Shown here in pieces: positions 2,066 through 26,226 of a DNA stretch of 42,057 bases; the stretch's first letter is position 1, and each line of letters starts with the position of its first letter. A program made the translations under genes and the position numbers. This stretch comes from a virus. Under the pieces are notes generated by a model that saw only the letters and a program-made list of their open reading frames with translations, searched no databases and was not told the DNA's origin. The stretch lies in UHGV virus genome UHGV-0106421. One strand, 5' to 3'.

Positions 2066-2626
2066 TTACATTGTGTCTGGTTTTGTCGGCCACTGAATAT
2101 CCGGAACCCCGGATGTATTTACTGTTTCCAGTGCATCCAGATAATCCAGCCACAAGTTATATTGCGCAAGCTCATCACCTTTCAGCCGGCCAATGGCAGC
2201 CTTTCCTGCCCACTGATGGCTGTTCATGAATTCATTTGCCTGACTGATTTTTGTTTGTTTTTCCATCTCAGCCAGGGTAATAAGCTCACTCCGGGTATAC
2301 TGTCTTGCAGATACCTTACCGTCCGAATAAACCCACCCGCCATAAATATCAATACCTTCAGGAATACTGGCAACCTCTGCCACACTGCACGATACAGGAA
2401 ACAGCGTGGAAACATCTCTGGTTATTGATTTCACAATACCTTCACTGTCATACATTATCTTGAATGTATCGTCCTTAAATAACTGCTGAGAGGTGTACCA
2501 CTCCCGGCCTTCTTCATCACGCAGAATAATGGCACCGAGTTCTGCCAGTAGCTTTTCTTCATCTGAAACAGGCTCAGAAATAACAAAATTTCTCATATCC
2601 ATCATGATAAACCTACCGTTACCCAT
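2066..2626 (-). CDS. Tail fiber assembly protein (Tfa-like chaperone)
   Basis: 186-aa ORF directly downstream of the tail fiber gene; overall Tfa-like sequence; true start probably an internal Met near 2605. Confidence 0.65.
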   Translation of the reverse strand: MGNGRFIMMDMRNFVISEPVSDEEKLLAELGAIILRDEEGREWYTSQQLFKDDTFKIMYDSEGIVKSITRDVSTLFPVSCSVAEVASIPEGIDIYGGWVYSDGKVSARQYTRSELITLAEMEKQTKISQANEFMNSHQWAGKAAIGRLKGDELAQYNLWLDYLDALETVNTSGVPDIQWPTKPDTM

Positions 2627-3690: not shown

Positions 3691-4352
3691 GCTCCAACAT
3701 CGAACCCGCCGATGTATTCGTTATCCATGTCAAATCCAAAGAATTTTGTTCCTTCGGACGGTGTTTCGACTGAGGGTGTTTCAACGCCGCCAGCCCATAC
3801 ACCAGCAGCTTTAACGGTGAGATAACCCTGTTTGATAGCGGCTATCAGTTCGAGTGACACATCAGAAATATCAGTCTCGGGAAAAACCCAGACCGATATC
3901 GTCATGTCCTGGTTATCGACGATCTGCATCTTCAGTCCAGAGCCTGCGGTAGCAGCGTCAAGGATGGGAGGCAGAGAGTCGTTCCGACCATCCCAGTTGT
4001 TGATAGCGATTTTCGCTTTCAGAATGATGCGGTACGTCTCATCACTCAGCGTCGTATAGCCAGAATCAGGATCATATGGCCCTTGCCAGATGCCCTGGTC
4101 ATATCCGAGCCCGTCAGTGTCCCAGCTGAAATAAACGCCGCTAATTGGCTGGCTGACTATACGACTACGCCCAATCCACAGGCCGAGGATATCGAGTTGC
4201 ACGCCAACCGCCGTATCGATATCGAAGGCTGTTACAAGCCCTGACATAGTGCTGGACACATCAATCAGCGGGCGGGTGCTCAGATCTATATGGTCAAAAA
4301 AGAGTGGCTTGGTAGCATGGTAGTTAGTGATCAGTTCGGTGTATTTGCTCAT
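3672..4352 (-). CDS. Baseplate/tail protein (Mu gp48-like)
   Basis: ORF directly after the baseplate J-like gene; ATGA stop/start overlap with it at 4349..4352 if the internal Met is used. Confidence 0.45.
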   Translation of the reverse strand: MSKYTELITNYHATKPLFFDHIDLSTRPLIDVSSTMSGLVTAFDIDTAVGVQLDILGLWIGRSRIVSQPISGVYFSWDTDGLGYDQGIWQGPYDPDSGYTTLSDETYRIILKAKIAINNWDGRNDSLPPILDAATAGSGLKMQIVDNQDMTISVWVFPETDISDVSLELIAAIKQGYLTVKAAGVWAGGVETPSVETPSEGTKFFGFDMDNEYIGGFDVGAWGTLL

Positions 4353-5548
4353 GAGGTCACCGTGATAGTGACGTGACTCGCAACGCATGACGCAGATTCG
4401 TCATAAGCAATATCGATATTTCCGCTTGCGACTGAGTCAGAGGATTTGCCGATGAGCAGCTCCTGAATGTCGTAATAGCGAGCACTGCCTCCGCTTACCA
4501 CGCCAAGGTTTGCCGGGGAATAAATACGACTCAGCAGAACGTCATCGCCAATTGCCAGGCCATTTATATAATCGGCAACAGCCTGTTTAATCTGCTCGCC
4601 GATTTGAGAGGTATAGCCGGTAAAAACTTTCAGGGTAATGGCTACGAAAATTGGCACATCGGTAGAGCGCGAAAAACTGATGACGTGTGGATTACCGTAA
4701 GTATCCGGCACCGTGACAGAAGTTTTACCGTAAGTTGCGGTTCCCTGCCCTTTACTCCCCCGGATTGTTTGGGCTATCTCGGTAACATCCCCTCCATCGA
4801 CGATGGCGGAAATAGAGTGTGGCGGCAGCCCGTTGCTGTCGGTTGCCCCAGTGTCGTTCTCATATAGTTTGTGACGTGTCACGCCAGCAACATTAGCGAT
4901 AGCACCGTCGACACCTTCAAACGGTGTGATCGATGGTAGCGCGACGCTTTGCCCCTGCCGAATGCGCAGCTCTGCGTCGGTTTCGGCTGGTGAACCGACA
5001 GTAGCCGCAACTGGATTGGTTACCGACACCCAACCTCGGGTCGGGGTGTTGATAGTGGTAATAGTCCCGGCCAGCGCCGCAACCGAACCGCTATTCGCAC
5101 ATGTGGCCGTCACCAGCACAGTACCATCAACGCCGATCGCTACACTTGCGGGAAAATTCCAGATAATGCCGTTTTTATCCCGTGCGGAGCCATTCGTGAT
5201 AGTCGTGCCTGCCGTACCGGTTAACAGAAGGTCAGCAGTAGAGTTTGTCGCTACTTTTCGCGTGATCCCGTTAATTTTCACATTGTTGCTAAGCGCTGCG
5301 GCCTGCGCTGTCGTCGGTGAAAAAGAGTTGTAGATCTCGATAGCGGTATTGTTAGCGTCATGCACCGCAAGAGCCACCAGCGCGACCATTTGCCCATCTT
5401 TGCTGTCTGGTTCGAGGTAGGCATCACTACCGTAAATCTGCCTGAAATAGCTGGTCAGTGTATCAAGGATTGTCTGGTAATCAGGCGCACTAATCCCCTG
5501 GGCGGTTACCGTTGCCGATAGCCCCAGCGTGTCGAGGTTCAAAGCCAT
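4349..5548 (-). CDS. Baseplate J-like protein
   Basis: 399-aa ORF in the gene order expected for a Mu/P2-type baseplate wedge. Confidence 0.65.
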   Translation of the reverse strand: MALNLDTLGLSATVTAQGISAPDYQTILDTLTSYFRQIYGSDAYLEPDSKDGQMVALVALAVHDANNTAIEIYNSFSPTTAQAAALSNNVKINGITRKVATNSTADLLLTGTAGTTITNGSARDKNGIIWNFPASVAIGVDGTVLVTATCANSGSVAALAGTITTINTPTRGWVSVTNPVAATVGSPAETDAELRIRQGQSVALPSITPFEGVDGAIANVAGVTRHKLYENDTGATDSNGLPPHSISAIVDGGDVTEIAQTIRGSKGQGTATYGKTSVTVPDTYGNPHVISFSRSTDVPIFVAITLKVFTGYTSQIGEQIKQAVADYINGLAIGDDVLLSRIYSPANLGVVSGGSARYYDIQELLIGKSSDSVASGNIDIAYDESASCVASHVTITVTS

Positions 5549-5902
5549 TTATGCCTCGCTTGTTACAGTCGTCTGGCCGTAGATTGTGTCAATGGAGGAA
5601 GTGAAGGTGACGCGACGGCTGGTGCCGTCATAATTGGTATCGAAGGAAAGAATCGACAGAACGCCCGGTGTATCCTGTATGCGTTCGCGTATAGCCAGGA
5701 TGTAGACATCTGATCGCTGCTTCCCAAGCACTGACTGAACATACGGCGTGCCTTCCGTCAGATCGAGAAACCACTGACCGCGCCACAGCTCGAAACGGGT
5801 TTTTACGGCCTGGGCGACACATTCCGGACTGTCGATAAGGAAAGTATCGTCACCCTGGCCGAAAGTGTAATCGCCTTCAGTATCTTCGCGACGGTATCGC
5901 AT
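5549..5902 (-). CDS. Baseplate protein (gp25/GPW or Mu gp46-like)
   Basis: 117-aa ORF tightly coupled between the V-like and J-like genes. Confidence 0.45.
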   Translation of the reverse strand: MRYRREDTEGDYTFGQGDDTFLIDSPECVAQAVKTRFELWRGQWFLDLTEGTPYVQSVLGKQRSDVYILAIRERIQDTPGVLSILSFDTNYDGTSRRVTFTSSIDTIYGQTTVTSEA

Positions 5903-7503: not shown

Positions 7504-7513
7504 GTCCCGTACC

Positions 7514-8578
7514 TCAGTAGTTTGTTTTTTGCATAGCACCAGCATTAACTAAATCACGACTGCCACGCGCAAAACACATCAAATCCATGTACCACGCCTG
7601 ACCTCTGGTGTCGCCAGTATAGTCGATAGCTTTGACGATATAAACGCCATCTGTCGCAATGCTGGCAGCCTGTGACGTTGTGCCGGTCAGTGCGCGGTTG
7701 CCGTTCTCTTCCGTTTCAGTGATACGCCCGGGCGACTGTGCGATTTCGCTATTGCCGAGCGCGGCGCGGTACACCGAAGCCTGATCGAGCTGGATAAGAC
7801 CATTAATGCGGATGTTTGGGTTTATCAGGCACCGCACGTTTACGCCGCCGCCCATTGTCTGTTGCGGCATACCGATCAGGCCAGTATTGGCATTCAACAC
7901 AATGGCTTCGTGAATATATTTATCCTCCGGCACCATCTGGACCTGACCATCCACCAGTTGCCATGTCGCTTTGCACTGCGCAGCAATATTATCCATCACG
8001 TTGCGGCTGGATGAGTAAATCGCGCGGCCACGAGGAAACACGGTATCAGGAAAATCGCCGGTAATGCCCTGTGTCACGCCGAACGCGTTGAAATCCTGCA
8101 TCGTCGCCCGGTGCAGATCCGCAACGGTATAGCCAGCGGCAAGCGTGGTGATGGTAGTCGCGTAGAGGAACGCTTCGTGGTTACTGATGGCCTGAATCAG
8201 CACCCAGGAATCGGTGATGTTGTCCTTCCCGGTGACGGTGAAGCGAATATCACCGTCAAATATCAGGCCGTAGTTCTGACCGTTCACCTGCCCTACCTGG
8301 TCTGGTGAAATCTCCAGGGCGACACCAACCTGGCTCGCATCAACATCCGGCGCTATACCGTCATACCCGGCAATGATGCGAATTTTGGCAAACTCCTGCC
8401 CAAGTATCTTGTTCGTGGTATCGGTCGAAAGGTTGTAAATTTTCACGTTCGCCACGCGCGGCCAGCGTGTGTCTGCCCACTCGATCTGGAACGTGACCTT
8501 AAAGTTAGACAGGGAAACGCCCTGCCCGTTCTGGTCCAACAGTTGCAGCTCAAAATGGCGCATCCAGTTAAGAGACAT
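7514..8578 (-). CDS. Tail/baseplate hub-like protein (Mu gpP or P2 gpD-like)
   Basis: 354-aa ORF downstream of the tape measure and small tail genes; assignment by position and size. Confidence 0.4.
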   Translation of the reverse strand: MSLNWMRHFELQLLDQNGQGVSLSNFKVTFQIEWADTRWPRVANVKIYNLSTDTTNKILGQEFAKIRIIAGYDGIAPDVDASQVGVALEISPDQVGQVNGQNYGLIFDGDIRFTVTGKDNITDSWVLIQAISNHEAFLYATTITTLAAGYTVADLHRATMQDFNAFGVTQGITGDFPDTVFPRGRAIYSSSRNVMDNIAAQCKATWQLVDGQVQMVPEDKYIHEAIVLNANTGLIGMPQQTMGGGVNVRCLINPNIRINGLIQLDQASVYRAALGNSEIAQSPGRITETEENGNRALTGTTSQAASIATDGVYIVKAIDYTGDTRGQAWYMDLMCFARGSRDLVNAGAMQKTNY

Positions 8579-8580
8579 TT

Positions 8581-8886
8581 CTACTCCTGTACGAAAATGA
8601 GGTGGCTGTATGTGCCGAGGTTGGTTTTGGTGGGCTCGTCTGGTGCGCCCTTATCGGTCGCCACCACCAGCGCGCCATCAATGCCAAGCTGTGGATATTG
8701 TCGTAAAAGGTTTACGCCGGTCAGTAGAGGTACGCCAGAGAGAAGCGCGGCACCGCCGCTATCCATCACGTCCATAATCCAGCCAGCCGCATCACGCCAG
8801 ATGATCCTGAGTGTATACGTGGTATTGCCCAGCAAAACGCGGAACTGCTGATTGTCAGGAGAAAGCGGTATTTCGTTAAACTGCAT
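8581..8886 (-). CDS. Tail protein (unassigned)
   Basis: 101-aa ORF tightly packed between tail genes. Confidence 0.4.
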   Translation of the reverse strand: MQFNEIPLSPDNQQFRVLLGNTTYTLRIIWRDAAGWIMDVMDSGGAALLSGVPLLTGVNLLRQYPQLGIDGALVVATDKGAPDEPTKTNLGTYSHLIFVQE

Positions 8887-8887
8887 A

Positions 8888-9490
8888 TCATCCCCCGAAT
8901 GCTGATGTAACGCTTCCGCCCAGCTGGCTCAGCAAGGATTCGTTTGGCGGTGTAGTGGATTTCATCCCGGAATTCTGCACCGCCGATGTGCTGACGCCAT
9001 CCTGCATATCTGATTTATCTGCAACGCTAACGCTCTGCGTCTGCGACATGATCATTTCACGCAGGGTAAGCGTGCAGTTCAGCACGTTCTCGCTGGTTTT
9101 ATCCGTTGTCACCTCGATGGCTCGCACCAGCATATTGCTGTAAACCCGCTTTCCGGTCACTACATCGAACGGCACCCGAGAGGACTGGAGATCCAGTAGT
9201 TGCTGATAGGTCTCTTTCGGGCTAAGTCCGGCGCTGAGGCCGATTGACGATGTATCAATGAAGTCCAGCAACGAACCGCCACCAGCGAAGCCGCATTCCA
9301 TTGTGACTTCGCTGGGGCGCTTATACGCATGATCGGCGATGAAGCCCGAAGCGCTATTCGTTGTTGGCTTCTCCACCGGGTGCTCAGTAATTTCGAGCGC
9401 ATCAGAATGCTTTTCGGAGACGACCACGCTGGGGATCAGCAGGCCAATTCGCCGGGATTGCTGGCGAAAAATCGCTGATAAAATATCCAT
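8888..9490 (-). CDS. Tail protein downstream of the tape measure (unassigned)
   Basis: 200-aa ORF abutting the tape measure stop. Confidence 0.4.
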   Translation of the reverse strand: MDILSAIFRQQSRRIGLLIPSVVVSEKHSDALEITEHPVEKPTTNSASGFIADHAYKRPSEVTMECGFAGGGSLLDFIDTSSIGLSAGLSPKETYQQLLDLQSSRVPFDVVTGKRVYSNMLVRAIEVTTDKTSENVLNCTLTLREMIMSQTQSVSVADKSDMQDGVSTSAVQNSGMKSTTPPNESLLSQLGGSVTSAFGG

Positions 9491-11505
9491 TATCTCGGTC
9501 CTGCGGGGAGTTGCTGGGTTAACTGTGAATTCACGCCCTTTTGACGATCAACAGTCAAACGGGCAGCCTCGCGCGGATCGGAAACGCCGTGGATGTTAAT
9601 ATTCGTTTCCTGCTGAATCACCGGGGCGCTGGTGGGCATGTTGCTCATTACTTTCGGAATGTAGTTACGCGTTTCCTGCGGCATTAACCCCATGCCATAG
9701 CGCTTAACATTCCCGATCCCCCAGTTATATGATGCCAGTGCTTTGCTAAGGTCTCCGCCGTTCTGCCGCAACAGCTGGCTGAGGTACTTAGCTGCGGCCT
9801 GAGCTGACTTTTGCGGGTCGAATACATCGTTTCCGCGAAGGCCCATGTCGCGCGCCGTACCATCCATAAACTGAAACAGACCTTTAGCGCCAGCGCCTGA
9901 AACGGCGAACTGATTACCGCCAGATTCCGTTATGGCCACACTGCGCAATAACCCCTCCGGAAGCCGGTAGAGCTGTTCCAGGTTGGTAAGCATCGGCTGC
10001 ATCCATCCCAGCAGTTCAGAGCCTGCTTTGGTTGGCTGTGGCCGCTTAACTGACTGGCCGAGCTGTTCAGGCTCATCATCACCGAACCAGCCGCGCACCG
10101 TTCGGCCCACGCTGCGAGGATCGAATCCCCAGTGCTCTTTAATCCAGTCGGCGGTACCGTTGGCGCTGTCTGTTACCATCGGCATCGCTGACGGATTTTC
10201 GCTGCCCTGATTTAGCAGCTGTTTGCCTATACTAGCGGCCTGCGCCCAGTTGCCATCTTTTATGGCATTCAGCAAATCAGCGATCATGTTCAGCATCTTG
10301 CCGAACTCACCCATTTGCGAAATGAAGTTGCTAAAATCCCACTTTAGGGACCATGACTTGGGGTCAATACCGAGCAACTTAGCCAGCGCTTTTGTCAGGT
10401 CCGTAACAGTCTTTTTCAGGTCACCAATCATTTTGACGGCCTGATCAATTTCAGTCTTCCATTTCCCCCAGTCAATCAGGCTTTTGCCACCTTCTTTCCA
10501 CGTCTGGTAATCATCCAAGAGCAGACCAAGTGCAATAATAAGCGTCGTTATCATGCCCAAGGGTGATGACATGAAAGCGGTATTTAGCAGCCGCCATGCA
10601 ACCAACAGCCCACTGAACAATGCGATAAGCTGCTGCGTGGCTGGGTTCAGCTTTTTGAACCAGGCGATCACACCCTCAACAGCTTGCCCAGTTCGCCATA
10701 ACACGCGGGTAATCGCGTCACCTGCCCAGAGAATTCCTTTGATGATCTTCGTGATGACCGCTTCAATCTTCGGCCAGTTGTCGAGTATCTGCCTGCGGAA
10801 GTTATCAATACTGCCAGCAAGGCCACCAGCTAGGTTAGAGCCAATCTTGTCTTTCGCCTGTCCAAGCGTCATCGTCAGATTACGCATGGAGGTCATGAAA
10901 ATATTGGACTGTTTAGCCGCTGACTCAGCATTAAAACCAATACGCTTTGCCGTCAACGCGTACTCAGAACTGAGCTGCCCCATCCCTCTGCGCATCGCCA
11001 TCAGCGTGTTTTCATCGATGCCAAGCATCTGCGCGTATTGTTTCGCGCGGTAATACGGCATGTTGTTGAGCTTTTGCCCAACGCCAGTAAAGATGGCCGC
11101 AGTATCACGCATCTTTCCGCTGGCATCGCGGGTCTGGACACCAAGACGGTTCAGGAACCCTTCCGCCCCCGGATTGCTACGCATGAAGCCAGCCAACCCT
11201 TCGAGGGAGGACATGGCCGACTCAGCGCTGGCGCCAGTTTGCGATGCGGCATAGCCCAGCGCTTTGATGCCCTGGACGCTGGCCCCCGTCCGCTGGGATG
11301 CCCAGTAAATTTTATCCAGACCATTCGCGATCTGGGTGGTAAATCCGACAATGCTCAGCGCTGCTCCTTCCACCACCGCGCCGACCTTCAGAACGTTCGC
11401 GGTAACGCCTTTCAGCACTGCTTCAAACTTATTAGCGCCAGCCTGATCGATATCGAATCCCAGCGAAACAAGGAAATCTTTAATCGTATCTGCGTTACCG
11501 CTCAT
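9490..11505 (-). CDS. Tail tape measure protein with C-terminal lytic transglycosylase (SLT) domain
   Basis: 671-aa ORF with hydrophobic central segments; C-terminal SLT-like motifs (ITESGGN, GAKGLFQFM, YNWG). Confidence 0.75.
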   Translation of the reverse strand: MSGNADTIKDFLVSLGFDIDQAGANKFEAVLKGVTANVLKVGAVVEGAALSIVGFTTQIANGLDKIYWASQRTGASVQGIKALGYAASQTGASAESAMSSLEGLAGFMRSNPGAEGFLNRLGVQTRDASGKMRDTAAIFTGVGQKLNNMPYYRAKQYAQMLGIDENTLMAMRRGMGQLSSEYALTAKRIGFNAESAAKQSNIFMTSMRNLTMTLGQAKDKIGSNLAGGLAGSIDNFRRQILDNWPKIEAVITKIIKGILWAGDAITRVLWRTGQAVEGVIAWFKKLNPATQQLIALFSGLLVAWRLLNTAFMSSPLGMITTLIIALGLLLDDYQTWKEGGKSLIDWGKWKTEIDQAVKMIGDLKKTVTDLTKALAKLLGIDPKSWSLKWDFSNFISQMGEFGKMLNMIADLLNAIKDGNWAQAASIGKQLLNQGSENPSAMPMVTDSANGTADWIKEHWGFDPRSVGRTVRGWFGDDEPEQLGQSVKRPQPTKAGSELLGWMQPMLTNLEQLYRLPEGLLRSVAITESGGNQFAVSGAGAKGLFQFMDGTARDMGLRGNDVFDPQKSAQAAAKYLSQLLRQNGGDLSKALASYNWGIGNVKRYGMGLMPQETRNYIPKVMSNMPTSAPVIQQETNINIHGVSDPREAARLTVDRQKGVNSQLTQQLPAGPR

Positions 11506-11682
11506 TGGCCGCTCTCCATTTATCTACCCGGGCGTCGTTATCCTCGCGCATGTCGAGGTAGTCATTGAGAAGCGCGATGCGGCAAAGGTCTACCGCACCG
11601 CTGTTAAGGTCTTTCTGGTCAATATGGAAGGCAAGCGCCGGGCGAAGAATAAAATCTTCACTGCCCGGCAGGCTGTTGAAGG

Positions 11683-18703: not shown

Positions 18704-19477
18704 TCAGGCGAGATAAGAATGAGGGTTGGGGAAGACGATTTCTTTGTAACAGCGGCAGTTCGGGAGCTCGCCAGCGTGACCGGTCATGCCGTCAAGCGTT
18801 GGAGGTCGGCCCCATTCGACAAACTTCCCTTCCATCTCTCGATGAGAATGCCGGACGTCGCCATCTTCGGCTGTACGCCAGATATAACCATTCGAGCCGA
18901 TTGACAGCGCACGCGCCTGATCCAGTGCACCGGTTGCGCGCCCAAGCTCAGTCCGGGCGATAAGGTTCGCTCGTGAGCGTGACACGTCACCGGAAGCAGC
19001 TATCTCTTTCGCGAATGGCTCAGCGCGGCCACCAGTTACTACAGCCTCGATGGCCTTGTTCTGAATGTCATACACCCGATCGGCGGCCTCAAGAGGCAGA
19101 GATTTGATGTACTTAATTTGCTCGGCGACGATGGATTTCATCACCTGGCCTACCGGGGCGCGGTCGACCATGTTGCGTAGTTCTGCGCTGATGTTCCGAC
19201 TGTGCTGACGCCACTGCTTTTCATTCTGGTGCGCAATGTCGGCGGTGAAGCTCTCAGCAACCTTAGTCGCCCAGGGGGTGATGATTTCGCTGTAGCGCTC
19301 CAGCGCATTCATTATTTCGGTGACGCTATCGTTTGAACCATCGTAGCGACCATTTACGATATCCCCGACCGCCCGCGCTATCTGCCGTAGGCTCGTTCGA
19401 TATCGGATCTCCGCCTGGCGGCTCTGGCGGTTTGTCGCCAAGTTCGCCGATGCCTGGCGGCGCTTCGTCTTCGGCAT
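18704..19477 (-). CDS. Head morphogenesis protein (Mu gpF / SPP1 gp7 family)
   Basis: 257-aa ORF with the F-like C-terminus GRPPTLDGMTGHAGELPNCRCY; the annotated start overlaps the portal by about 150 nt, so the real start may be the internal Met near 19312. Confidence 0.6.
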   Translation of the reverse strand: MPKTKRRQASANLATNRQSRQAEIRYRTSLRQIARAVGDIVNGRYDGSNDSVTEIMNALERYSEIITPWATKVAESFTADIAHQNEKQWRQHSRNISAELRNMVDRAPVGQVMKSIVAEQIKYIKSLPLEAADRVYDIQNKAIEAVVTGGRAEPFAKEIAASGDVSRSRANLIARTELGRATGALDQARALSIGSNGYIWRTAEDGDVRHSHREMEGKFVEWGRPPTLDGMTGHAGELPNCRCYKEIVFPNPHSYLA

Positions 19478-20795
19478 TCTCGATATCCTCGTCGGTAATG
19501 GATGCCCCGATGCCGGTGACGTCAGAGTTTTCGCGCAGGTCGGTCATCGCCGCCTTACGCGTCATCAATCCGTCGCCCAGCGCGGTACTGATCGCGTTGG
19601 TGGTGTTTACGGCCACCGTTGATCGGTCAACGTCTGACATTTGCCATAGCGGGTTAAACTCAAACGTGAAATCGTCCGGCAGCGGCTTTCCGAGTTCCGA
19701 GCGGTGCATAATGTCCAGTATCCGGCGCATCGGCAGCCGTAAGCGGCGCTCCTGCAATGAGCTCACCCGGTCGTAATAGTTGGCGAGGTCTGCATCACCA
19801 GTAGAGAAGCCTTTCGGGGATTGACCGAACAGGCGTATCAGCGGGATACCAACGGCACCGCTGATCTGCTCAGCAAACTGCGAAAGAATGTCATCCAGAC
19901 CACTAAAGCTGTACTGGTGGGTTTCGAACTTATCCCGCGAGTCCATGAGCGTCATGCCTTCATTGCTCTGGAACTGGCGGATCAGGTCGATGTTCTTCAG
20001 CAACGCTTCGAACGCTGGGCCACCAAGCGCGATAATCTCGCGCAGCTTCTCCACGCTGTAGGTGCGCAGATGCGCTTTGTAGACCAGCTGAGCCGCGCCG
20101 ACAGTGGCGCTGTCGAACGCAGTAAGCCGATCCCAGATTCGCTCTACAACCGACATTCCCCATTCGTTTTCGGTCATCTTCTGCTGGAATGGCAGCGTGA
20201 CGCCATCGAAGCGAATCAGGCGGCTGTGATGGATGCGCCAGGCAGGAATTCCCGTTGCTGTGGTCACCACATCGTAAAACTCAGGTTTGCCGAGATCCGG
20301 CCCCATATCTTTAATGCGGCGGGTCAGCACCGGGTTAATCATCCAGCGGTCGAGTGGGAGAACGCCCTTAAACTTGCCTTCTCCAATGGTTTCGAGCCTC
20401 AGCGGGGTCATTGGTGCCTGCCCCTCAATCATGATGAAACCCACCGCGCCGCCGTAGAGACGCGACCATTTCAGCACGTCGTTCAGCGCATCCCAGATTT
20501 GCAACTCATCCAGTTGTGATTCGAGAATGCCGCGATCTTTTGCATCAATTTCCGAAGTGATGCGAATGCCTTTGCGGGTCATATCATCCGGGATAGCATC
20601 GACCGCTTCTCCGATGATCCAGGACGAACGATAGGACCATTCCACCAGCATGCGGTTGCGGCTGGTGAAGTTAGCCCGGTAGGTCGATGCTGAGTGCTGG
20701 TTAGGCGTCTGCATTCCCACGCGGGCGACAAAGTTCTCATAGCCATCAGCGGTGGCCTGTGCCGTTCGCCGCGTGGCTTGCTTGTTTCGTGCCAT
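19326..20795 (-). CDS. Portal protein
   Basis: 489-aa ORF directly after the large terminase and before the F-like gene. Confidence 0.6.
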   Translation of the reverse strand: MARNKQATRRTAQATADGYENFVARVGMQTPNQHSASTYRANFTSRNRMLVEWSYRSSWIIGEAVDAIPDDMTRKGIRITSEIDAKDRGILESQLDELQIWDALNDVLKWSRLYGGAVGFIMIEGQAPMTPLRLETIGEGKFKGVLPLDRWMINPVLTRRIKDMGPDLGKPEFYDVVTTATGIPAWRIHHSRLIRFDGVTLPFQQKMTENEWGMSVVERIWDRLTAFDSATVGAAQLVYKAHLRTYSVEKLREIIALGGPAFEALLKNIDLIRQFQSNEGMTLMDSRDKFETHQYSFSGLDDILSQFAEQISGAVGIPLIRLFGQSPKGFSTGDADLANYYDRVSSLQERRLRLPMRRILDIMHRSELGKPLPDDFTFEFNPLWQMSDVDRSTVAVNTTNAISTALGDGLMTRKAAMTDLRENSDVTGIGASITDEDIENAEDEAPPGIGELGDKPPEPPGGDPISNEPTADSAGGRGYRKWSLRWFKR

Positions 20796-22417
20796 CAGGC
20801 CTGTCTCCCTAGCAGCTCCCAGATGTTCAGGGCTGAATTCATTGGCGCGTAGCTGATCATCACCGAGTCGGCAAGGTTTGGCGACCGGGTTCCATCAGGC
20901 TGTTTATCAATAACGATTTTTCCCACACCATTAATGGAATAGGTCGGCTGCGAAAGCTCGATGATGAGTTTATCTTTGAGTGCCATGCTACTGCTGATTG
21001 AGATGATTTCGTCCGGGGTGTAAGCCATACCTTCAACCACGGCGCGCCAGGTATTCTGAAAAAGTTTACGTAACCGCCACCAGCTCTGGGCCTTGGCGTT
21101 GGCGAAGAAGTCCTTGTTCAGGCGTGCGGCCTGTCCGTTGTCCCCGCGCACCGCTTCGTCGTCCGGATCAAACACCGCGCCGCTACCGCGAAACGGTGTA
21201 GCGAGTATTGACGGTCGACGCGCAGCGTTACGCTGTTCGTTGATAGCGCGTGCATCGCCGCGAACGCCAGCACCCAGCCCGTCCTCATCAAAGCGAAACT
21301 CTTCGAGGTTGTCATGTTCGCAAAAACCGAAGACCTTCTCGACGGACTGATAAATGTCGCTGCCCACACCAGACCATTCCCGCACATTTTCCAGGAGGAA
21401 GCCATGACGGGTGGAAAAGGCATTTTTGTCCCTGCCTTCGTCGGCGACATCCATCGCGCCAAGTCGTTTGCCTGTTGGCTGGATCCCCAGTTTGATATGT
21501 GCATCAACGGCAGCCTGTACCCATTCGGATGGAATCAGGACGCCTTCCGCTGATGCGCTGTAGTTCAGATCAAGTTCCTGTGCCACCACCACCGGATTAT
21601 CGATTTTCTCGCATTCCCTGCGATACCACTCTTCATCCTTGCGAGGATCATCCCGCCAGTGGAATGTGAATACCGGTATCTTCCCGCCGTGACGCTTCTG
21701 CGCGAACGGGTTCGCCATGCCGTTAACCGAACTCAGGTCGATACGGCAACGCGTCGTTTGTGACAACGCCGCATCAATCAGCAGAGGACGCTGAAGGAAT
21801 GCAGCCTCATCAACCAGATAAAGCGTGGTACGGTCACCACGACCAATATTATCGCCAGCCTCGCCTTTGATAACGGCACCAGTTTCAGGAAACTCAACAC
21901 GCATATATGGCGCGTGCTTCTTCTCGCTCCACGAACCGCGAAACTCTACAGGTAGTGTCTCCACGAACTTGCGCGCCTTCCAGAACAATGCTTTCGGGTC
22001 ACCGGTGCTGTCGACGTATTCCTCTTTACGGGAGCCGAAACCGATAACCATTTCTTTGTTGAAGAGACAAAGCGAGCAGGCCAGTCCGATCGCGGTCCAA
22101 CTGAGCCCCATTTCACGGGATTTTTCGGTAATACCATTCTCCCGATTACTCCAGCGTTCCATAATCCAGTGGATCCACTCCTCCTGCTTAGGGAAGAGTA
22201 AAAACGGAATGGTCACCGGCAGGCCATAATCAATATTACGCGGGTCCGTTGTCATGCCCCAGTCGATGATGAACTGAGCCGGATTGGTTCGGTAAAACTG
22301 TTTTAGTGCTGGCAATATTTCAGGGTTCTGGCGAATGCGCTGTAAGCGTTCCATCCGCCATTCAAAAACCATCTGGTAATCAGGATGTTTAAAATCGAAG
22401 GGAAATGGTAACGGCAT
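20795..22417 (-). CDS. Terminase large subunit
   Basis: 540-aa ORF after the small terminase; ATPase/nuclease-sized, with a Walker-like region. Confidence 0.8.
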
Positions 22418-22419
22418 AC

Positions 22420-22971
22420 TTAGCCCATCATTTTTTTATACGCTTCTGCAGCCTGCTCCGGCGTTAAGTTGGTAATTTCTGTTCTGACTGGTCCTCCGTC
22501 AGCACCAGTCACTTCATTTTTGACATTGTCTTTAAACGCCTGAACAGAAACATGACGCCCGAGCAACTCAAGGTTTTTAACCTTATCAGGCCATTTGATT
22601 TTCTTCAGAAGTGCGGCGCTATCTGCGGATACCATCTCCACGACATCCATTCCTGATAGCGTTGTGCGCCATACCTTAGGCCAGTCTTTGATGGGTTTTA
22701 GCTCACCGTTTTGCAGGAGAATGTCAAGCACATCCATCTGGTCGATTTCAATAAGGCGATTAAGTACATATTCTGCATTAATACCAACAAGATCATTGCG
22801 TTGCGCTTTCAGTTCGGCGATTCTTAACTTGATGTCAGGTTTTGACAGGTTTTCGGATGCGGTACGGTTAGCTGTCTTTGCGCTGTACCCCGCCCGAATA
22901 GCCGCTTGCGTGGCGTTTAAATCGATGAGGTACTCGCGACAGAACATTTCTTGCTTGTCGGTGAGTGCCAT
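22420..22971 (-). CDS. Terminase small subunit
   Basis: 183-aa ORF starting [30 protein letters not shown], the conserved N-terminus of P27-type small terminases. Confidence 0.7.
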
Positions 22972-22994
22972 TTTTTGTTGCCGTAAGAGTTTAT

Positions 22995-23531
22995 ATGACT
23001 ATCTATTACACAGTAGACCGTGCTGGTCATCATGGCATGCCAAACCCGCTTTCCACTGGCTTAGTGATTACAGCATCGGAGAGCTTCAACCATTTGCCTC
23101 CCAATATTGCTACGCATCTGGCAGCGTTGCTACCAGGTAATTACTCTCGTCATGGAAAGCAATATTTGATTGATGACACTGCAATGACTGCTCACGCAGG
23201 ATATCCAATGGAGATAATACTTGAGTTGATTAGACAAAGAGATTATTCAACCAAACCATCAAGGTTAAAATCTGCATTTGGCTGCTTATCCCTATCAGAT
23301 GCAGATTCCTTTAGAAAGCTAGACAACAGGTTTGTTAACGCCCCCATTTTTGAGATTTCGCCATCAACTCAACAAGCTCATGTTGCAGATATGCACCTGT
23401 TGAATATCGCTTGCCCAGCCCATGAATATCTCAACAGATGCCATCTTTATTGGCAGGGACTGCCCGGGCAAAACCCTTTTTGGGAAGCAGTTATTCCATT
23501 ACCAGCAACAATAGGAAATCAAGTGGCTTGA
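22995..23531 (+). CDS. Opposite-strand moron of unknown function at the lambda bor position
   Basis: 178-aa ORF from ATG 22995 with AAGAG 5 nt upstream; no signal peptide; AT-rich by eye; antisense to the late operon between Rz and terS. Confidence 0.45.
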   Translation: MTIYYTVDRAGHHGMPNPLSTGLVITASESFNHLPPNIATHLAALLPGNYSRHGKQYLIDDTAMTAHAGYPMEIILELIRQRDYSTKPSRLKSAFGCLSLSDADSFRKLDNRFVNAPIFEISPSTQQAHVADMHLLNIACPAHEYLNRCHLYWQGLPGQNPFWEAVIPLPATIGNQVA

Positions 23532-23928
23532 TATAGAGTAGGCTCGTTAAGTTGATCCAATGACCTTTCAGCCCAATTTACTTATTCGTTACTCTGTTGC
23601 TTGGCCTGCCTTGCTTATTTTTACATACCCGGAATCACGGGTATGTAGAATTTTCGATGGTTCACCTGAATAAACCTCATCCAGAGCTCTAACGTATTCG
23701 AGAGTTTCAGCGTTGGATAACCAGTGATCCAGACGCTTACCGAACCGTTTGCAATATCAGTGTCATTTGAAGCGGATAGCTTCACCTTTGTAATTCAGTG
23801 GAACGATATTCATAACGTTTACCTACTCTTTGAAATGAACCTTTGCCGCACAGGAAACCAGCTCACCGAGGCTCGCCAGCACTAACTGGTATCCTCAAAG
23901 GCCCATTCCAAAGGGGCAGGTTCGGTGT

Positions 23929-23983
23929 AAAAAACATGCGTTGCGGTACGCATTTATTGCAAAAAGCCCCGCATCGCGAGGCT
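23929..23983 (-). terminator. Tandem rho-independent terminator hairpins downstream of Rz/Rz1
   Basis: agcctcgcgatgcggggct followed by TTTTT, then atgcgt-accgca-acgcat followed by gTTTTTT (minus-strand reading). Confidence 0.5.
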
Positions 23984-24014
23984 CATTAAATTGACTTTGT
24001 GATTTGCAAAAAAA

Positions 24015-24476
24015 TTATTTCAGGCATTGCGTCCTGATGTACTCTTGCAGGTAGTTAACCTGCGCGGTTATCCTGTCGATTCCACTTCGGAGACGGTAAT
24101 AATTGAGTTCAGCATCTGCTGTAAGTCTTGGGCTTTCTCCATCGCCCATGCTGCTGGCTCCGGTCGTTGACTTTGCACAGGTGGCGGCGACTTGCAGGCG
24201 CTTACGACCAGCAGAAACATCAGCACGGAGACTTTCGATAGTCGCGTTAGCATCAGCAAGCTCCTTTGTATATCTGGCATCGAGTTCTGCTACGTCACGT
24301 TGACGCTTCTGCATATCAGAGATCGTCGCCATAGCCGAATCTAATGCCATAGCGTTTTCGTCGCGCTGTTTTTTGTATTCAATGGCTTTATTGTGGTAAT
24401 GATTAGCTGACCAGACGAGAGAACCGAATAAAGTCAGGAGGAAAGCAGAAATAACCAGCTTATAGCGAAGTTTCAT
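24015..24476 (-). CDS. Rz: Rz i-spanin (lambda Rz-like)
   Basis: From the internal Met ([14 protein letters not shown]) gives 153 aa with N-terminal TM helix and coiled-coil periplasmic domain; close to lambda Rz as recalled. Confidence 0.75.
   Translation of the reverse strand: MKLRYKLVISAFLLTLFGSLVWSANHYHNKAIEYKKQRDENAMALDSAMATISDMQKRQRDVAELDARYTKELADANATIESLRADVSAGRKRLQVAATCAKSTTGASSMGDGESPRLTADAELNYYRLRSGIDRITAQVNYLQEYIRTQCLK
24068..24253 (-). CDS. Rz1: Rz1 o-spanin lipoprotein, embedded out of frame inside Rz
   Basis: +1-frame ORF inside Rz; lipobox VVSAC; Pro-rich segment (KSPPPVQSQRPEPAAW), as in lambda Rz1. Confidence 0.6.
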   Translation of the reverse strand: MLTRLSKVSVLMFLLVVSACKSPPPVQSQRPEPAAWAMEKAQDLQQMLNSIITVSEVESTG

Positions 24477-24936
24477 TAACCACCCCGCCAGCTTCTTTGA
24501 ATTTGGCAATCAGACTATCGATCTTGTGTTCATACTGACCGTAGCCAGCACCGGGCAATGAAGCCCAAATATTGCTGCAACGATCAATAGCCTGACGAAT
24601 ATCACCCCGATCAATCATCGGTAAAGCGCCACGCTCCTTAATCTGCTGCAATGCAACAGCATCCTGGCTTTTAGGAGAGAAGTCTTTCAGGCCAAGCTGC
24701 TTACGGTAGGCATCCCACCAACGGGAAAGAAGCTGATAGCGACCGGCTGCTGTTGATTTGAGTTTTGGGTTTAGCGTGACAAGTTTGCGAGGGTGATCTG
24801 AGTAATCAGTGAATAGCTCTCCGCCAACAATGACGTCATAACCATGATTTCTGGTTTTCTGACGTCCGTTATCAGTTCCCTCTGACCATGCCAGCATATC
24901 GAGGAACGCCTTACGTTGATTATTGATTTCCACCAT
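24460..24936 (-). CDS. R: Endolysin, lytic transglycosylase (lambda R-like)
   Basis: 158-aa ORF starting [45 protein letters not shown], near-identical to lambda R as recalled. Confidence 0.9.
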
Positions 24937-25243
24937 CTTCTACTCCGGCTTTTTTAGCAGCGAAGCGTTTGATAAGCGAACCAATCGAGTCAGTACCGAT
25001 GTAGCCGATAAACACGCTCGTTATATAAGCGAGATTGCTACTTAGTCCGGCGAAGCCGAGAAGGTCACGAATGAACCAGGCGATAATGGCGCACATCGTT
25101 GCGTCGATTACTGTTTTTGTAAACGCACCGCCATTATATCTGCCGCGAAGGTACGCCATTGCAAACGCAAGGATTGCCCCGATGCCTTGTTCCTTTGCCG
25201 CGAGAATGGCGGCTAACAGGTCATGTTTTTCTGGCATCTTCAT
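24920..25243 (-). CDS. S: Class I holin with dual-start motif (lambda S-like)
   Basis: 107-aa ORF starting [34 protein letters not shown]; Met1-Lys2-Met3 dual start (ATG 25243 and ATG 25237); near-identical to lambda S as recalled. Confidence 0.9.
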
Positions 25244-25249
25244 GTCTTA

Positions 25250-25263
25250 CCCCCAATAAGGGG
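25250..25263 (-). promoter_or_regulatory. sdi-like stem-loop in the S 5' leader
   Basis: cccc-ttatt-gggg hairpin a few nt upstream of the S dual start, as in lambda. Confidence 0.5.
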
Positions 25264-25707
25264 ATTTGCTCTATTTAATTAGGAATAAGGTCGATTACTG
25301 ATAGAACAAATCCAGGCTACTGTGTTTAGTAATCAGATTTGTTCGTGACCGATATGCACGGGCAAAACGGCAGGAGGTTGTTAGCGCAGCCTCTTGCCAC
25401 CCGCTTTCACGAAGGTCATGTGTAGAAGGCCGCAGCGTAACTATCACTGATGAATTCAGGATAGCCAGAGGCTACGGCTCAGTTTGGGGTGTGCTGTTGC
25501 TGGGCGGCGATGACGCCTGTACGCATTTGGTGATCCGGTTCTGCTTCCGGTATTCGCTTAATTAAGCACAACGGAAAGAGCACTGGCTAACCAGGCGCGC
25601 CGACTCTTCACGATTATCGACTCAATGCTCTTACCTGTTGTGCAAATAAAAAAAAGCCACCGTTGCAACTTAAGAGTCACTAACGGCAGCTTACCCTCTA
25701 ATTATGG

Positions 25708-26226
25708 CTAAATGGCTAATTGCATGTCAAGGCTTTTAACAGCAACATGCTTAACTTTCTCAACACGTTTACGCATTTTGAAAGCATTTTGCATTGGCTG
25801 GTATAAAACAAATAATGACGCTTTCAGGATGTCGTCAATTTCGTTTCTACAGGTTGCCAGTGAAGGTTTTCTCCATCCCTCGCCACCACGTCCACACATC
25901 TTGCGTGGCTTTGCAGTCGCGTGATAGTAGGATGCAATTGCTCGCTTAGATGAACCATGAGCGTAGTAGCTGAGGAGGATGCCAAAGGCTTTCTTGTCAA
26001 TGTACATGACGGAATCGACGACCTGAGAAATCAACATTCCATCATCATCATTGCACATTGGCCTTGTCATAACTCTTCCCGGCTCTACGCTCTCCATGAA
26101 CTTCGCTATTACGCTGCTCATGCGCTTTTCCAGACGACCTGAATAAACCCATGCGCCCCACAGTTCAAGCCAGCCATTCAGCCACTCGTGCTGCTCTTTG
26201 GTGAGGTTTAGTTCTCTTATGCTCAT
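25708..26226 (-). CDS. Q: Late-gene antiterminator Q (non-lambda Q family)
   Basis: 172-aa ORF immediately upstream of the lysis cassette, with WLELWGAW and Cys/Asp-rich motifs seen in Q-like antiterminators of the phage 82/21 type. Confidence 0.55.
   Translation of the reverse strand: MSIRELNLTKEQHEWLNGWLELWGAWVYSGRLEKRMSSVIAKFMESVEPGRVMTRPMCNDDDGMLISQVVDSVMYIDKKAFGILLSYYAHGSSKRAIASYYHATAKPRKMCGRGGEGWRKPSLATCRNEIDDILKASLFVLYQPMQNAFKMRKRVEKVKHVAVKSLDMQLAI

What the first reader, a model, noticed from the sequence alone, without database searches (positions are those of the whole stretch)
22972..24014. Opposite-strand moron at the bor position, followed by an ORF-poor AT-rich stretch
Between Rz/Rz1 and the small terminase, a 178-aa ORF (22995..23531) is encoded antisense to the late operon, as lambda bor is, but it is twice the size of Bor and has no lipoprotein signal. 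The next 480 bp has no ORF of 60 aa or more. On the minus strand it shows a short ORF (MNIVPLNYKGEAIRFK) that stops and continues in another frame (…FGKRLDHWLSNAETLEYVRALDEVYSGEPSKILHTRDSGYVK…), which looks like a frameshifted gene remnant. An opposite-strand gene in a late-operon gap is the classic arrangement for lysogen-expressed cargo.
Basis: partly seen in the sequence, partly recalled or inferred. Interest (0 to 1): 0.65.

Follow-up and report, generated by a model that had tools for sequence, protein, structure and literature searches.

The report
Prophage cargo gene: ADP-ribosyltransferase-like protein
A small, well-conserved gene of unknown function, whose protein is shaped like an ADP-ribosylating enzyme, sits backwards in a swap-in slot between the lysis and DNA-packaging genes of an E. 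coli prophage, next to the wreck of an older gene; it is a credible but untested candidate for a phage-versus-phage weapon.

Summary
ORF 22995-23531 (+, 178 aa) lies antisense to the late operon between Rz/Rz1 and terS, and the next 483 bp has no ORF over 54 aa. One detail is wrong: the minus-strand remnant continues in the same frame. It is a KilA-N gene with 17-bp and 1-bp deletions (two in-frame TGA stops), cut at about codon 75 and fused to the tail of a small late gene.

It is exchangeable cargo. The insert starts at the base after the terS start codon. Sister prophages carry a 35%-identical DUF2441 allele, an unrelated 72-aa ORF, or nothing there. The same gene, dragging a terS 5' fragment, occurs in phages with other terminases.

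Best reading: a moron encoding a probable NAD+-using enzyme active in phage-phage or phage-host conflict. Expression and activity are untested, and no clear promoter was found. It is a new member of a known kind, of moderate interest.

The parts
22995..23531 (+). Cargo gene: 178-aa DUF2441 / BC2332-like protein of the ADP-ribosyltransferase (ART) superfamily fold
22972..22994 (.). 23-bp spacer between the divergent start codons. It holds the cargo gene's Shine-Dalgarno TAAGAG (22984-22989) and, on the other strand, the terS ribosome-binding region. The left edge of the insert is at 22971|22972.
   Evidence: The window, L049 and E. coli LWY24 are identical up to the terS ATG and unrelated from the next base on.
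22914..22971 (+). terS 5' coding DNA that always travels with the gene. This is the minimal co-inherited segment (the fragment retained in Salmonella phages corresponds to window 22717-22971). It is the candidate location of the cargo promoter, by inference only.
   Evidence: A frameshifted terS fragment of 88 codons lies next to the gene in Salmonella GpA-terminase phages. Only 26 codons remain in the Sf6-terminase phage L032. No consensus promoter was found.
23532..23606 (-). Tail derived from the last codons and 3' flank of a small late-strand gene (phrog_6581, called 'small72' here). The fused reading frame ends at TAA 23591-23589.
   Evidence: Window '...SKAGQATE*RISKLG*' compared with L032 '...AEETAE*RVSKPG*'. 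phrog_6581 E 2.6e-38 for the intact gene.
23607..23813 (-). KilA-N gene remnant. ATG at 23813-23811; 17-bp deletion near 23767; 1-bp deletion near 23750; in-frame TGA stops at 23765-23763 and 23759-23757. The 3' two-thirds are lost.
   Evidence: Alignment with intact 173-aa KilA-N genes of E. coli LWY24 and UTAK-1. BLAST edge at 23607. Pfam KilA-N E 2.8e-24 for the intact relative.
23619..23650 (+). 13-bp hairpin followed by UUUU, 88 nt after the cargo stop codon. Candidate one-way terminator for the cargo transcript.
   Evidence: Terminator scan. Fold energy -19.4 kcal/mol, z -4.85. On the minus strand the hairpin is followed by an A-run, not a U-run.
23814..24014 (-). Rz to KilA-N intergenic region with terminator-like hairpins on the late strand (23953-23936 and 24037-24020)
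   Evidence: About 97-98% identical over window 23781-24100 in many E. coli prophages.
22420..22971 (-). Small terminase (Terminase_2), the fixed left neighbour of the slot
   Evidence: Pfam E 6.8e-40.
24015..24509 (-). Rz spanin (Rz1 embedded at 24068-24280), the end of the lysis cassette and right neighbour of the variable interval
   Evidence: Pfam Phage_lysis E 5.3e-40. ORFs.

Best explanation
SHOWN.
- 22972-23606 is a horizontally exchanged single-gene cargo cassette in the lysis-terminase interval of a lambdoid/P22-like E. coli prophage.
- Its gene (22995-23531, antisense to the late operon) encodes an intact, selectively maintained member of the DUF2441/BC2332-like family. This family is a functionally uncharacterised branch of the ADP-ribosyltransferase (ART) fold superfamily.
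- The ORF-poor stretch beyond it is debris of older late-strand accessory genes. It is a KilA-N gene with two small deletions, fused by a larger deletion to the last codons of a small phrog_6581 gene.

INFERRED.
- The gene is transcribed on its own from within or near the terS 5' coding DNA that always accompanies it, and ends at the + strand hairpin 23619-23650. It would therefore be made when the late operon is silent (in the lysogen, or immediately on entry).
- The protein binds NAD+ in an ART-type cleft lined by the family's near-invariant residues: S51-x-H53-G54, E77, R80, P88-S89-R90, F/Y95, D132, Y152-W153 and E164. It would transfer ADP-ribose to, or cleave NAD+ in response to, a non-self target.
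- That target most likely belongs to a competing phage or mobile element, which would give the lysogen superinfection immunity.

Confidence is about 0.85 for the shown part, about 0.5 for enzyme activity and about 0.3 for the defence role.
For: Real gene:
- dN/dS 0.17 (21 non-synonymous and 30 synonymous differences) against the Salmonella copy.
- phrog_5663 E 4.5e-42. The family has 3166 clusters at 50% identity. Model pLDDT 93.3.

ART fold:
- Pfam places DUF2441 in the ART clan (PMC7955679). SCOP lists BC2332-like among ADP-ribosylation folds (PMC3000352). Local 3D residue-template matching (ProFunc) matched the BC2332 active site to diphtheria toxin (PMC3024214).

Cargo:
- The left edge lies exactly at the terS ATG. 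Alternative occupants in sister prophages are a 35%-identical DUF2441 allele in L049 (terS 96%, TerL 99%), an unrelated 72-aa ORF in LWY24 and S1, and none in E89.
- The gene is 100% identical in nucleotides among five of the six carriers examined, and differs by one synonymous base in the sixth (L007). In four of these carriers the flanks differ from the window by 1.3-3.2%.
- It has transferred with a terS pseudogene scrap into phages with GpA-type and Sf6-type terminases.
- All 13 close IMG/VR loci place it between lysis and terminase genes on the opposite strand.

Conflict flavour:
- Relatives sit in a conjugative element beside an AAA_15 ATPase and beside McrBC.
- Others lie in the Q-lysis moron gap and in the Gordonia phage region between the tail and integrase genes.
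- One is fused to a CHAT protease.

Terminator.
Against: - No sigma-70 consensus promoter lies upstream (none found by eye in 22800-22994). Independent or lysogenic expression is therefore unproven.
- There are no hits in PADLOC or NCBIfam, and no paper tests any DUF2441 protein.
- The catalytic residues could not be mapped. hhalign to Arr and to diphtheria toxin was insignificant. Both D132 and E164 are candidates for the catalytic acid, and H53 is Q in one subclade.
- The Pfam model itself scores the window protein below its cut-off (16.3 bits against 25).
- Relatives in Cronobacter phiES15 and in Mu-like Klebsiella phages lie on the late strand. That placement fits a role during lytic growth.
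- The gene is rare. None of 5426 complete E. coli genomes carries this allele.
Confidence: 0.45

Rival explanations
1. The protein is a phage-offence factor. It would be an ART-like enzyme used by the phage itself at infection or during lytic growth to disarm host immunity or re-programme the host, in the way AcrF11 ADP-ribosylates Cas8f or T4 Alt/ModA/ModB modify host proteins.
- The protein is small and solitary, with no immunity partner, as expected for an enzyme that is harmless to its producer.
- Homologues in phiES15 and the KP12-type phages sit inside the late transcription unit.
- Rapid allele replacement at one slot also fits counter-defence genes.
Against: - In the window and in all close relatives the gene is antisense to the late operon. 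Late transcription would oppose its expression.
- The slot is not in the early region where anti-defence genes usually lie.
- The AcrF11 similarity is weak and shared with many other ARTs.
- Relatives occur in non-phage elements next to defence genes.
Confidence: 0.2
2. The protein is a host-benefit enzyme acting on a small molecule or on the NAD+ pool. It would be Arr-like (inactivating an antibiotic or toxin by ADP-ribosylation) or a regulated NADase. This would be lysogenic conversion unrelated to phage defence.
- The family is large and mostly stand-alone.
- Some members lie outside obvious mobile elements, such as Paraburkholderia L025 and chromosomal BC2332 of B. cereus.
Against: - hhalign to Arr is insignificant.
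- The strong tie to phage cargo slots, and the allele turnover there, is more typical of conflict genes.
- The invariant R80 and R90 suggest a phosphate-bearing macromolecular substrate, though this is inference only.
Confidence: 0.1
3. The protein is a catalytically inert ART-fold protein that works by binding. It could be a decoy, sensor or regulator that recognises NAD+/ADP-ribose or a protein partner.
For: - The canonical H-Y-E or R-S-E triad cannot be assigned with confidence.
- H53 is replaced by Q in a subclade.
- The CHAT-protease fusion P0125 could use the domain as a sensor.
- In the 171-aa subclade a small convergent ORF co-diverges with the gene, which hints at a protein partner.
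Against: R80, Y152 and E164 are invariant, and G54, E77, S89 and R90 nearly so, across 134-178 divergent members. They are shared with BC2332. Its local geometry matched the diphtheria-toxin active site (PMC3024214).
Confidence: 0.15
4. The gene is a functionless hitchhiker, carried along by recombination at a hotspot and on its way to decay like its neighbours.
For: The adjacent KilA-N and phrog_6581 genes have decayed. The allele is absent from all 5426 complete E. coli genomes. No promoter was found.
Against: - dN/dS is 0.17.
- The ORF is intact in every carrier examined. It is identical in nucleotides in five of the six, with one synonymous change in L007.
- The family-wide invariant residues are kept.
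- The exact protein is indexed in 128 blocks of the assembly collection.
Confidence: 0.05

Closest known systems
BC2332 of Bacillus cereus (PDB 2AUA); Pfam DUF2441 (PF10386); SCOP 'BC2332-like'; PHROG 5663
   Different: Only 17% identity to BC2332. The window protein is shorter (178 aa; the BC2332 chains are 210-224 aa), and its N-terminal 60 residues do not align by sequence. It is prophage-borne in Enterobacteria rather than chromosomal in a Firmicute. No member has a tested function.
AcrF11 (PDB 6KYF), a phage anti-CRISPR mono-ADP-ribosyltransferase
   Different: Only 72 residues align, at 10% identity. There is no sequence homology. AcrF11 genes sit in anti-CRISPR loci with an aca gene, not in the lysis-terminase slot. 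No CRISPR link was seen here.
Arr rifampin ADP-ribosyltransferase
   Different: The profile comparison is insignificant (probability 0.8%). Nothing here indicates a small-molecule substrate.
Lambda bor (and lom), the classic lysogen-expressed morons
   Same: Same map interval (after Rz, before the packaging genes), opposite strand to the late operon, and present or absent among related phages. These properties of bor are from my own knowledge, not checked here.
   Different: There is no sequence or fold relation, no lipoprotein signal, and the protein is about twice the size of Bor. Expression from the prophage is established for bor but untested here.
ART toxins of defence systems: DarT (DarTG), CmdT (CmdTAC), RES/ParT
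   Different: Those toxins need an adjacent antitoxin (a macrodomain, a chaperone pair or an Xre regulator). The window gene has no co-oriented partner, and PADLOC gives no hit.

Membership tests
DUF2441 / BC2332-like (PF10386, phrog_5663) | Significant match to the family's sequence model | tested here: met
   phrog_5663 E 4.5e-42 over the full length. A family profile hits 2AUA at E 4e-15. Homologues of 83-89% identity carry PF10386. Caveat: Pfam hmmscan on the window protein alone gives 16.3 bits, below the 25-bit cut-off.
DUF2441 / BC2332-like (PF10386, phrog_5663) | Same three-dimensional fold as BC2332 | tested here: met
DUF2441 / BC2332-like (PF10386, phrog_5663) | Family-invariant residues present | tested here: met
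   D8-R9, S51, H53-G54, Y57, E77, R80, P88-S89-R90, F95, D132-M133, Y152-W153, E164 and P170 are all present in the window protein. Each is conserved in 82-100% of 178 members.
Catalytically active ADP-ribosyltransferases (ART superfamily) | ART split beta-sheet fold | tested here: met
Catalytically active ADP-ribosyltransferases (ART superfamily) | Recognisable catalytic triad (H-Y-E or R-S-E) in the canonical strands | tested here: inconclusive
   Candidates exist: H53-G54, F/Y95 and E164 or D132; alternatively R9, S89/S93 and E164. hhalign to Arr and to diphtheria toxin was insignificant, and the model coordinates could not be inspected.
Catalytically active ADP-ribosyltransferases (ART superfamily) | NAD+ binding and ADP-ribosyl transfer | not testable with these tools
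   This needs biochemistry.
Moron (independently transcribed cargo gene in a phage operon gap) | Present or absent between otherwise near-identical phages, with sharp boundaries | tested here: met
   The left edge is at 22971|22972 and the right edge at about 23606|23607. Sister prophages with 92-99% identical terS/TerL carry other contents.
Moron (independently transcribed cargo gene in a phage operon gap) | Base composition differs from the surrounding genes | tested here: met
   GC is 0.436 against 0.50 for the window and 0.53 for terL. The difference from terS (0.466) is small.
Moron (independently transcribed cargo gene in a phage operon gap) | Own promoter | tested here: inconclusive
   No sigma-70 consensus site lies upstream. 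Only 20-23 bp separate the cargo ATG from the conserved terS DNA in three different cassettes. Any promoter must therefore lie inside terS.
Moron (independently transcribed cargo gene in a phage operon gap) | Own terminator | tested here: inconclusive
   Hairpin 23619-23650 has -19.4 kcal/mol and z -4.85, with a U-run on the + strand only. It lies inside former KilA-N coding sequence and has only four U residues.
Moron (independently transcribed cargo gene in a phage operon gap) | Expressed from the repressed prophage | not testable with these tools
   This needs RNA-seq or 5'-RACE of a lysogen.
Lambda Bor lipoprotein family | Sequence homology and a lipoprotein signal peptide | tested here: not met
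   The only Pfam hit is DUF2441. The N-terminus has no hydrophobic stretch or lipobox cysteine (sequence).
Known anti-phage defence systems (PADLOC-DB v2) | Match to any defence-protein model | tested here: not met
   No hit at E up to 1.
Toxin-antitoxin ART modules (DarTG, RES-Xre, CmdTAC) | Adjacent co-transcribed antitoxin or immunity gene | tested here: not met
   No + strand ORF of 60 aa or more lies next to the gene. The downstream DNA is minus-strand gene debris.
KilA-N domain proteins (for the remnant at 23607-23813) | Intact KilA-N coding sequence | tested here: not met
   The DNA is 83-86% identical to intact KilA-N genes, whose product hits Pfam KilA-N at 2.8e-24. The window copy has two deletions, two stops and lacks codons from about 76 to 173.

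The most novel reading that the evidence does not exclude
DUF2441 proteins may be a previously unrecognised class of single-gene ART-based conflict effectors that need no antitoxin. They could act in anti-phage defence or in counter-defence. In enterobacterial lambdoid phages they would be plugged, as interchangeable and fast-replacing alleles, into a fixed 'cargo slot' that begins at the base after the terS start codon. A promoter buried antisense in the terS 5' coding sequence would drive them. That would explain why a scrap of terS follows the gene into phages with unrelated terminases.
Probability: 0.25. Interest if true: 0.7.

Novelty: new member of a known kind. Interest (0 to 1): 0.42.

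Why it matters
- If the protein is an active ADP-ribosyltransferase with a phage or host target, it would give a function to a family of over 3000 sequence clusters. That family has had a crystal structure since 2005 but no known role.
- It would add a solitary enzyme with no antitoxin to the list of ADP-ribosylation-based immunity or counter-immunity mechanisms.
- The exact-boundary slot at the terS start codon holds at least three alternative contents in one phage lineage. It is a handy natural place to look for further prophage accessory genes.
- It may also be an example of a promoter embedded in an essential packaging gene.
- If the gene has no phenotype, the locus remains an ordinary example of mosaic cargo turnover and gene decay in lambdoid prophages.

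Tried and rejected
- PADLOC and NCBIfam scans of the protein gave no hits.
- An Rfam scan of 22500-25800 gave nothing credible.
- Literature searches for DUF2441, PF10386, BC2332 and 2AUA found only classification and structural-genomics mentions, and no functional test. Two defence-discovery papers mention only DarT and CmdT.
- hhalign of the family profile against Arr-2 and against the catalytic domain of diphtheria toxin was insignificant. The catalytic triad stays unassigned.
- The promoter scan, and reading by eye of 22800-22994, found no convincing -35/-10 pair. The best is TTGACA at 22842-22847 with TACGGT after a 15-bp spacer, and this lies outside the 81 bp retained in L032.
- I considered that the 72-aa + strand ORF in LWY24/S1 might be a truncated DUF2441. 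I rejected this because the sequence is unrelated.
- I considered that the small convergent gene (phrog_6581) might be a dedicated partner. I rejected this because it occurs in 14 phage records, none of which has a DUF2441 match.
- The scan of GTDB representative genomes returned only one locus, in Pantoea deserta. Alignment A3 was too diverse for that tool.
- The afdb50 fold library was unavailable.
- DNA searches of 5426 complete E. coli genomes gave no copy of this allele, even at blastn sensitivity.
Full report
SETTING. The window is a lambdoid/P22-like prophage. Its structural half (1-22971) matches 11 complete E. coli genomes over at least 80% of its length at 93-96% identity, and part of that stretch matches all 5426 complete E. 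coli genomes, so the host is most likely E. coli. The late operon runs on the minus strand: Q 25708-26226, holin 24920-25243, lysozyme 24460-24936, Rz 24015-24509 with Rz1 24068-24280, then terS 22420-22971 (Pfam Terminase_2, E 6.8e-40), TerL 20795-22417 and portal 19326-20795. The finding concerns the 1043 bp between Rz and terS.

THE OBSERVATION. The + strand ORF 22995-23531 (178 aa) exists as described. A GTG at 22965 could extend it to 188 aa. However, the PHROG alignment starts at residue 11 of that form, and every homologue begins M-x-x-[YF]-[YF]-T-V-D-R at the ATG. A Shine-Dalgarno TAAGAG lies 5 nt upstream. The start codons of the ORF and of terS face away from each other and are 23 bp apart.

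The interval 23532-24014 has no ORF above 54 aa. GC is 0.436 in the ORF and 0.439 in the gap, against 0.50 for the window and 0.53 for TerL, but 0.466 for terS. 'AT-rich' is therefore true but mild. The N-terminus has no signal or lipobox (from the sequence).

The minus-strand peptide MNIVPLNYKGEAIRFK is there, with its ATG at 23813-23811.

THE ORF-POOR STRETCH IS GENE DEBRIS. Many E. coli prophages have an intact 173-aa KilA-N gene directly after Rz on the late strand (Pfam KilA-N E 2.8e-24). Aligned to those, the window copy shows three lesions:
- A 17-bp deletion after codon 15. This shifts the frame and creates the stops.
- A 1-bp deletion 17 nt later. This restores the frame.
- Complete loss of homology after GYVK-x-SKA, at window 23607.

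The 75 bp between that point and the cargo stop codon are not random. Read in the same frame they give '...SKAGQATE*RISKLG*', which matches the C-terminus and 3' flank of a small late-strand gene in relatives: L032 has '...AEETAE*RVSKPG*' (phrog_6581). So a deletion fused KilA-N codon ~75 to the last five or so codons of that gene. The small gene is not a dedicated partner of the cargo gene. It occurs in 14 phage records, none of which appears among the DUF2441 matches.

All carriers of the exact cargo protein whose contigs span the whole gap share the same debris at 99.6-100% identity. The decay therefore predates their spread.

THE ORF IS A REAL, MAINTAINED GENE. The exact protein is indexed in 128 blocks of the assembly collection. 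Of the six contigs shown, five have the full arrangement (terS, gene, 483-bp gap, Rz) and one (L007) is truncated beyond the gene. The five have different lysis cassettes and Q types. The gene is 100% identical in nucleotides in five of the six carriers, and one synonymous change is seen in the sixth (L007). In four of them the flanks differ from the window by 1.3-3.2%; L006 is identical to the window throughout. Against an 89%-identical Salmonella copy, dN/dS is 0.17, from 21 non-synonymous and 30 synonymous differences.

WHAT THE PROTEIN IS.
- Pfam gives only a sub-threshold DUF2441 hit (16.3 bits against a cut-off of 25).
- phrog_5663 (unknown function) matches end to end at E 4.5e-42.
- All homologues found carry PF10386.
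- A profile of 134 family members hits the single solved structure, BC2332 of Bacillus cereus (2AUA), at E 4e-15. The conserved E..E.VR, PSR, [FY]A, D..LL, YW.G and E motifs align.
- The family is large: 3166 clusters at 50% identity at E below 1e-3. Almost all are stand-alone proteins of 165-200 aa.
- An AlphaFold2 model built on 35 sequences is confident (pLDDT 93.3, pTM 0.88).
- This agrees with Pfam's placement of DUF2441 in the ART clan (PMC7955679) and with SCOP's BC2332-like family among ADP-ribosylation folds (PMC3000352). ProFunc, a local 3D residue-template method, matched BC2332 to the diphtheria-toxin active site (PMC3024214).
- No paper in the searchable library tests any member.
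- PADLOC and NCBIfam give nothing.

Residues conserved in 82-100% of 178 members are D8-R9, S51, H53-G54, Y57, E73, E77, R80, P88-S89-R90, S93, F95, F106, D132-M133, Y152-W153, E164 and P170. S-x-H-G followed by a helix, an aromatic residue in the next core strand and an invariant Glu at the start of a late strand resemble an H-Y-E arrangement. A strand-loop-D132 hairpin also resembles the catalytic hairpin of Arr. Enzyme activity is therefore inferred, not shown.

IT IS EXCHANGEABLE CARGO IN A FIXED SLOT.
- The window, E. coli LWY24 and IMG/VR locus L049 are identical through the terS start codon and unrelated from the very next base.
- In that position the window has this gene. L049-51 have the same head module (terS 96%, TerL 99%, portal 95%) but a DUF2441 allele only 35% identical. 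LWY24 and S1 have an unrelated 72-aa + strand ORF. E89 has no + strand gene.
- In all three occupied cases the cargo ATG lies 20-23 bp from the boundary. This leaves room only for a ribosome-binding site.
- The window-type gene is also found in Salmonella phages with lambda-type GpA terminases and in a phage with an Sf6-type terS. In each case it is still attached to a dead fragment of the Terminase_2 terS: 88 frameshifted codons, and 26 codons, respectively.
- All 13 close IMG/VR loci place it between a lysis cassette and a terminase on the opposite strand.
- More distant homologues (29-45% identity) occupy the same junction next to Terminase_4/HNH, Nu1-like/GpA and Sf6-type terminases. Others occupy the other classic moron gap between Q and the lysis genes, again on the opposite strand.
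- There are exceptions on the late strand: Cronobacter phiES15 (Rz, DUF2441, terS) and Mu-like Klebsiella phages (dam, DUF2441, holin).
- Outside lambdoid phages, relatives sit between the tail genes and the integrase/repressor genes in Gordonia phages, as cargo of a conjugative element next to an AAA_15 ATPase, and next to McrBC. One is fused to a CHAT protease that resembles SAVED-CHAT and Borvo models.
- The alleles are rare in E. coli. The window type is in 0, the L049 type in 4 and the P0028 type in 0 of 5426 complete genomes.

TRANSCRIPTION SIGNALS. No sigma-70 consensus promoter was found upstream. By eye the best is TTGACA at 22842-22847 with a poor -10 after a 15-bp spacer, and L032 does not retain that segment. 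The cargo ATG is always 20-23 bp from conserved terS DNA, and a terS scrap follows the gene. A promoter antisense within the first ~80 bp of terS is therefore the economical inference, but it is unproven.

Downstream, a 13-bp hairpin at 23619-23650 (-19.4 kcal/mol, z -4.85) is followed by UUUU on the + strand and by an A-run on the minus strand. It could stop the cargo transcript without stopping late transcription. It lies within former KilA-N coding sequence, so it may be fortuitous.

HOW IT MOST LIKELY WORKS. Shown: this is a selectively maintained, horizontally mobile cargo gene for an ART-fold protein, beside decayed accessory genes. Inferred: it is transcribed independently of the late operon, which must read through it in antisense to reach terS. 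It would then use NAD+ to modify, or be triggered by, a non-self target. The placement in cargo slots of phages and other mobile elements, the replacement by distant alleles at one site, the neighbours in defence-type contexts and the CHAT fusion all point to inter-element conflict. Superinfection defence by the lysogen is the most likely version.

The rivals are:
- A counter-defence or host-takeover enzyme like AcrF11 or T4 Alt. This is favoured by the late-strand homologues and by the lack of an immunity partner.
- An Arr-like or NADase activity that benefits the host.
- A non-catalytic binding role.
- A functionless hitchhiker. The dN/dS value argues against this.

COMPARISON AND NOVELTY. 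The protein is a member of a known but uncharacterised family (DUF2441/BC2332-like, phrog_5663), and the arrangement is a textbook moron. It is not a Bor homologue, not a known defence protein and not a toxin-antitoxin ART module. The new points are modest. The first is the recurrent, orientation-biased occupation of the lysis-terminase and Q-lysis gaps by this ART-like family. The second is the base-exact cargo slot at the terS start codon. The third is the reconstruction of the neighbouring debris. I rate it a new member of a known kind, with moderate interest as a candidate for functional testing.

Noticed in passing
window 22971|22972; L049:4980-5001; L001:1588-1611: Three unrelated + strand cargo genes start 20-23 bp after the identical terS start codon in prophages that share the same terS/TerL. 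They are this DUF2441 gene, a 35%-identical DUF2441 allele, and a 72-aa ORF (WP_053903632.1). A fourth relative (E89) has none. This looks like a base-exact cargo slot, with any promoter necessarily inside terS.
   Followed up: partly
L013:6517-6771 and 11364-11564; L014-16; L027:6520-6771; L028; L043-45: In the 171-172-aa DUF2441 subclade, an 83-84-aa convergent ORF abuts the stop codon in every locus. One prophage (L013) has two DUF2441 paralogues (45% identical). Each is followed by a distantly related copy of this small ORF (34% identity over 35 aa, pairwise E 7e-6). This may be a co-diverging partner. It has no Pfam, PHROG or PADLOC hit and is absent from the window.
   Followed up: partly
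protein P0125 (572 aa, from the representative search): A fusion of an N-terminal CHAT caspase-like protease (Pfam E 1.7e-28; PADLOC SAVED_CHAT 1.4e-13, BovA 5e-4) with a C-terminal DUF2441 domain. This suggests that the domain can act as an effector or sensor in a defence-type protein.
   Followed up: partly
L009:5723-5977; L033-L040; L032:4901-4978: Dead fragments of a Terminase_2 terS lie beside the DUF2441 gene in phages that package with GpA-type or Sf6-type terminases. The fragments are 88 codons with a frameshift and a stop, or only 26 codons. They are a fossil of how the cassette moved.
   Followed up: yes
window 22972-22994, minus strand: Because the variable cassette begins right at the terS ATG, the terS ribosome-binding site is supplied by the cargo cassette. 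In the window it reads CTTACGGCAACAAAAAATG, a weak Shine-Dalgarno. L049 has AAGGAAAAACAATG and LWY24 has AAAGGTAATTTATG. The cargo may therefore influence terS translation.
   Followed up: no
window 25244-25707 (about 25485-25642): Relatives S1 and UTAK-1 carry tRNA-Asn and tRNA-Thr between Q and the holin gene. The window has an unrelated segment of about 158 bp there, and ARAGORN finds no tRNA anywhere in the window.
   Followed up: partly
L009:10830-11555: The Salmonella prophage that carries the 89%-identical DUF2441 gene also carries a Pertussis_S1 (ArtA-like) ADP-ribosylating toxin gene downstream of Q. One prophage thus has two different ART-fold cargo genes.
   Followed up: no
window 20795-22417: The large terminase (540 aa) has no Pfam-A hit at all and only a moderate PHROG match (phrog_2, E 2.7e-32). 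It is a divergent TerL lineage that NCBI annotates simply as 'TerL protein'.
   Followed up: no
window 22995-23531 compared with L003, L004, L005, L008: The cargo gene is 100% identical in nucleotides in prophages whose flanking 5 kb differ by 1.3-3.2% and whose lysis and Q modules differ. This suggests recent spread of the cassette by recombination.
   Followed up: partly
L024:142-675 and 2247-5658; L020:6001-6534 and 7510-9381: Distant DUF2441 genes lie next to McrBC and, in a conjugative element, next to an AAA_15 (OLD/Gabija-like) ATPase. These are defence-island-like surroundings.
   Followed up: no
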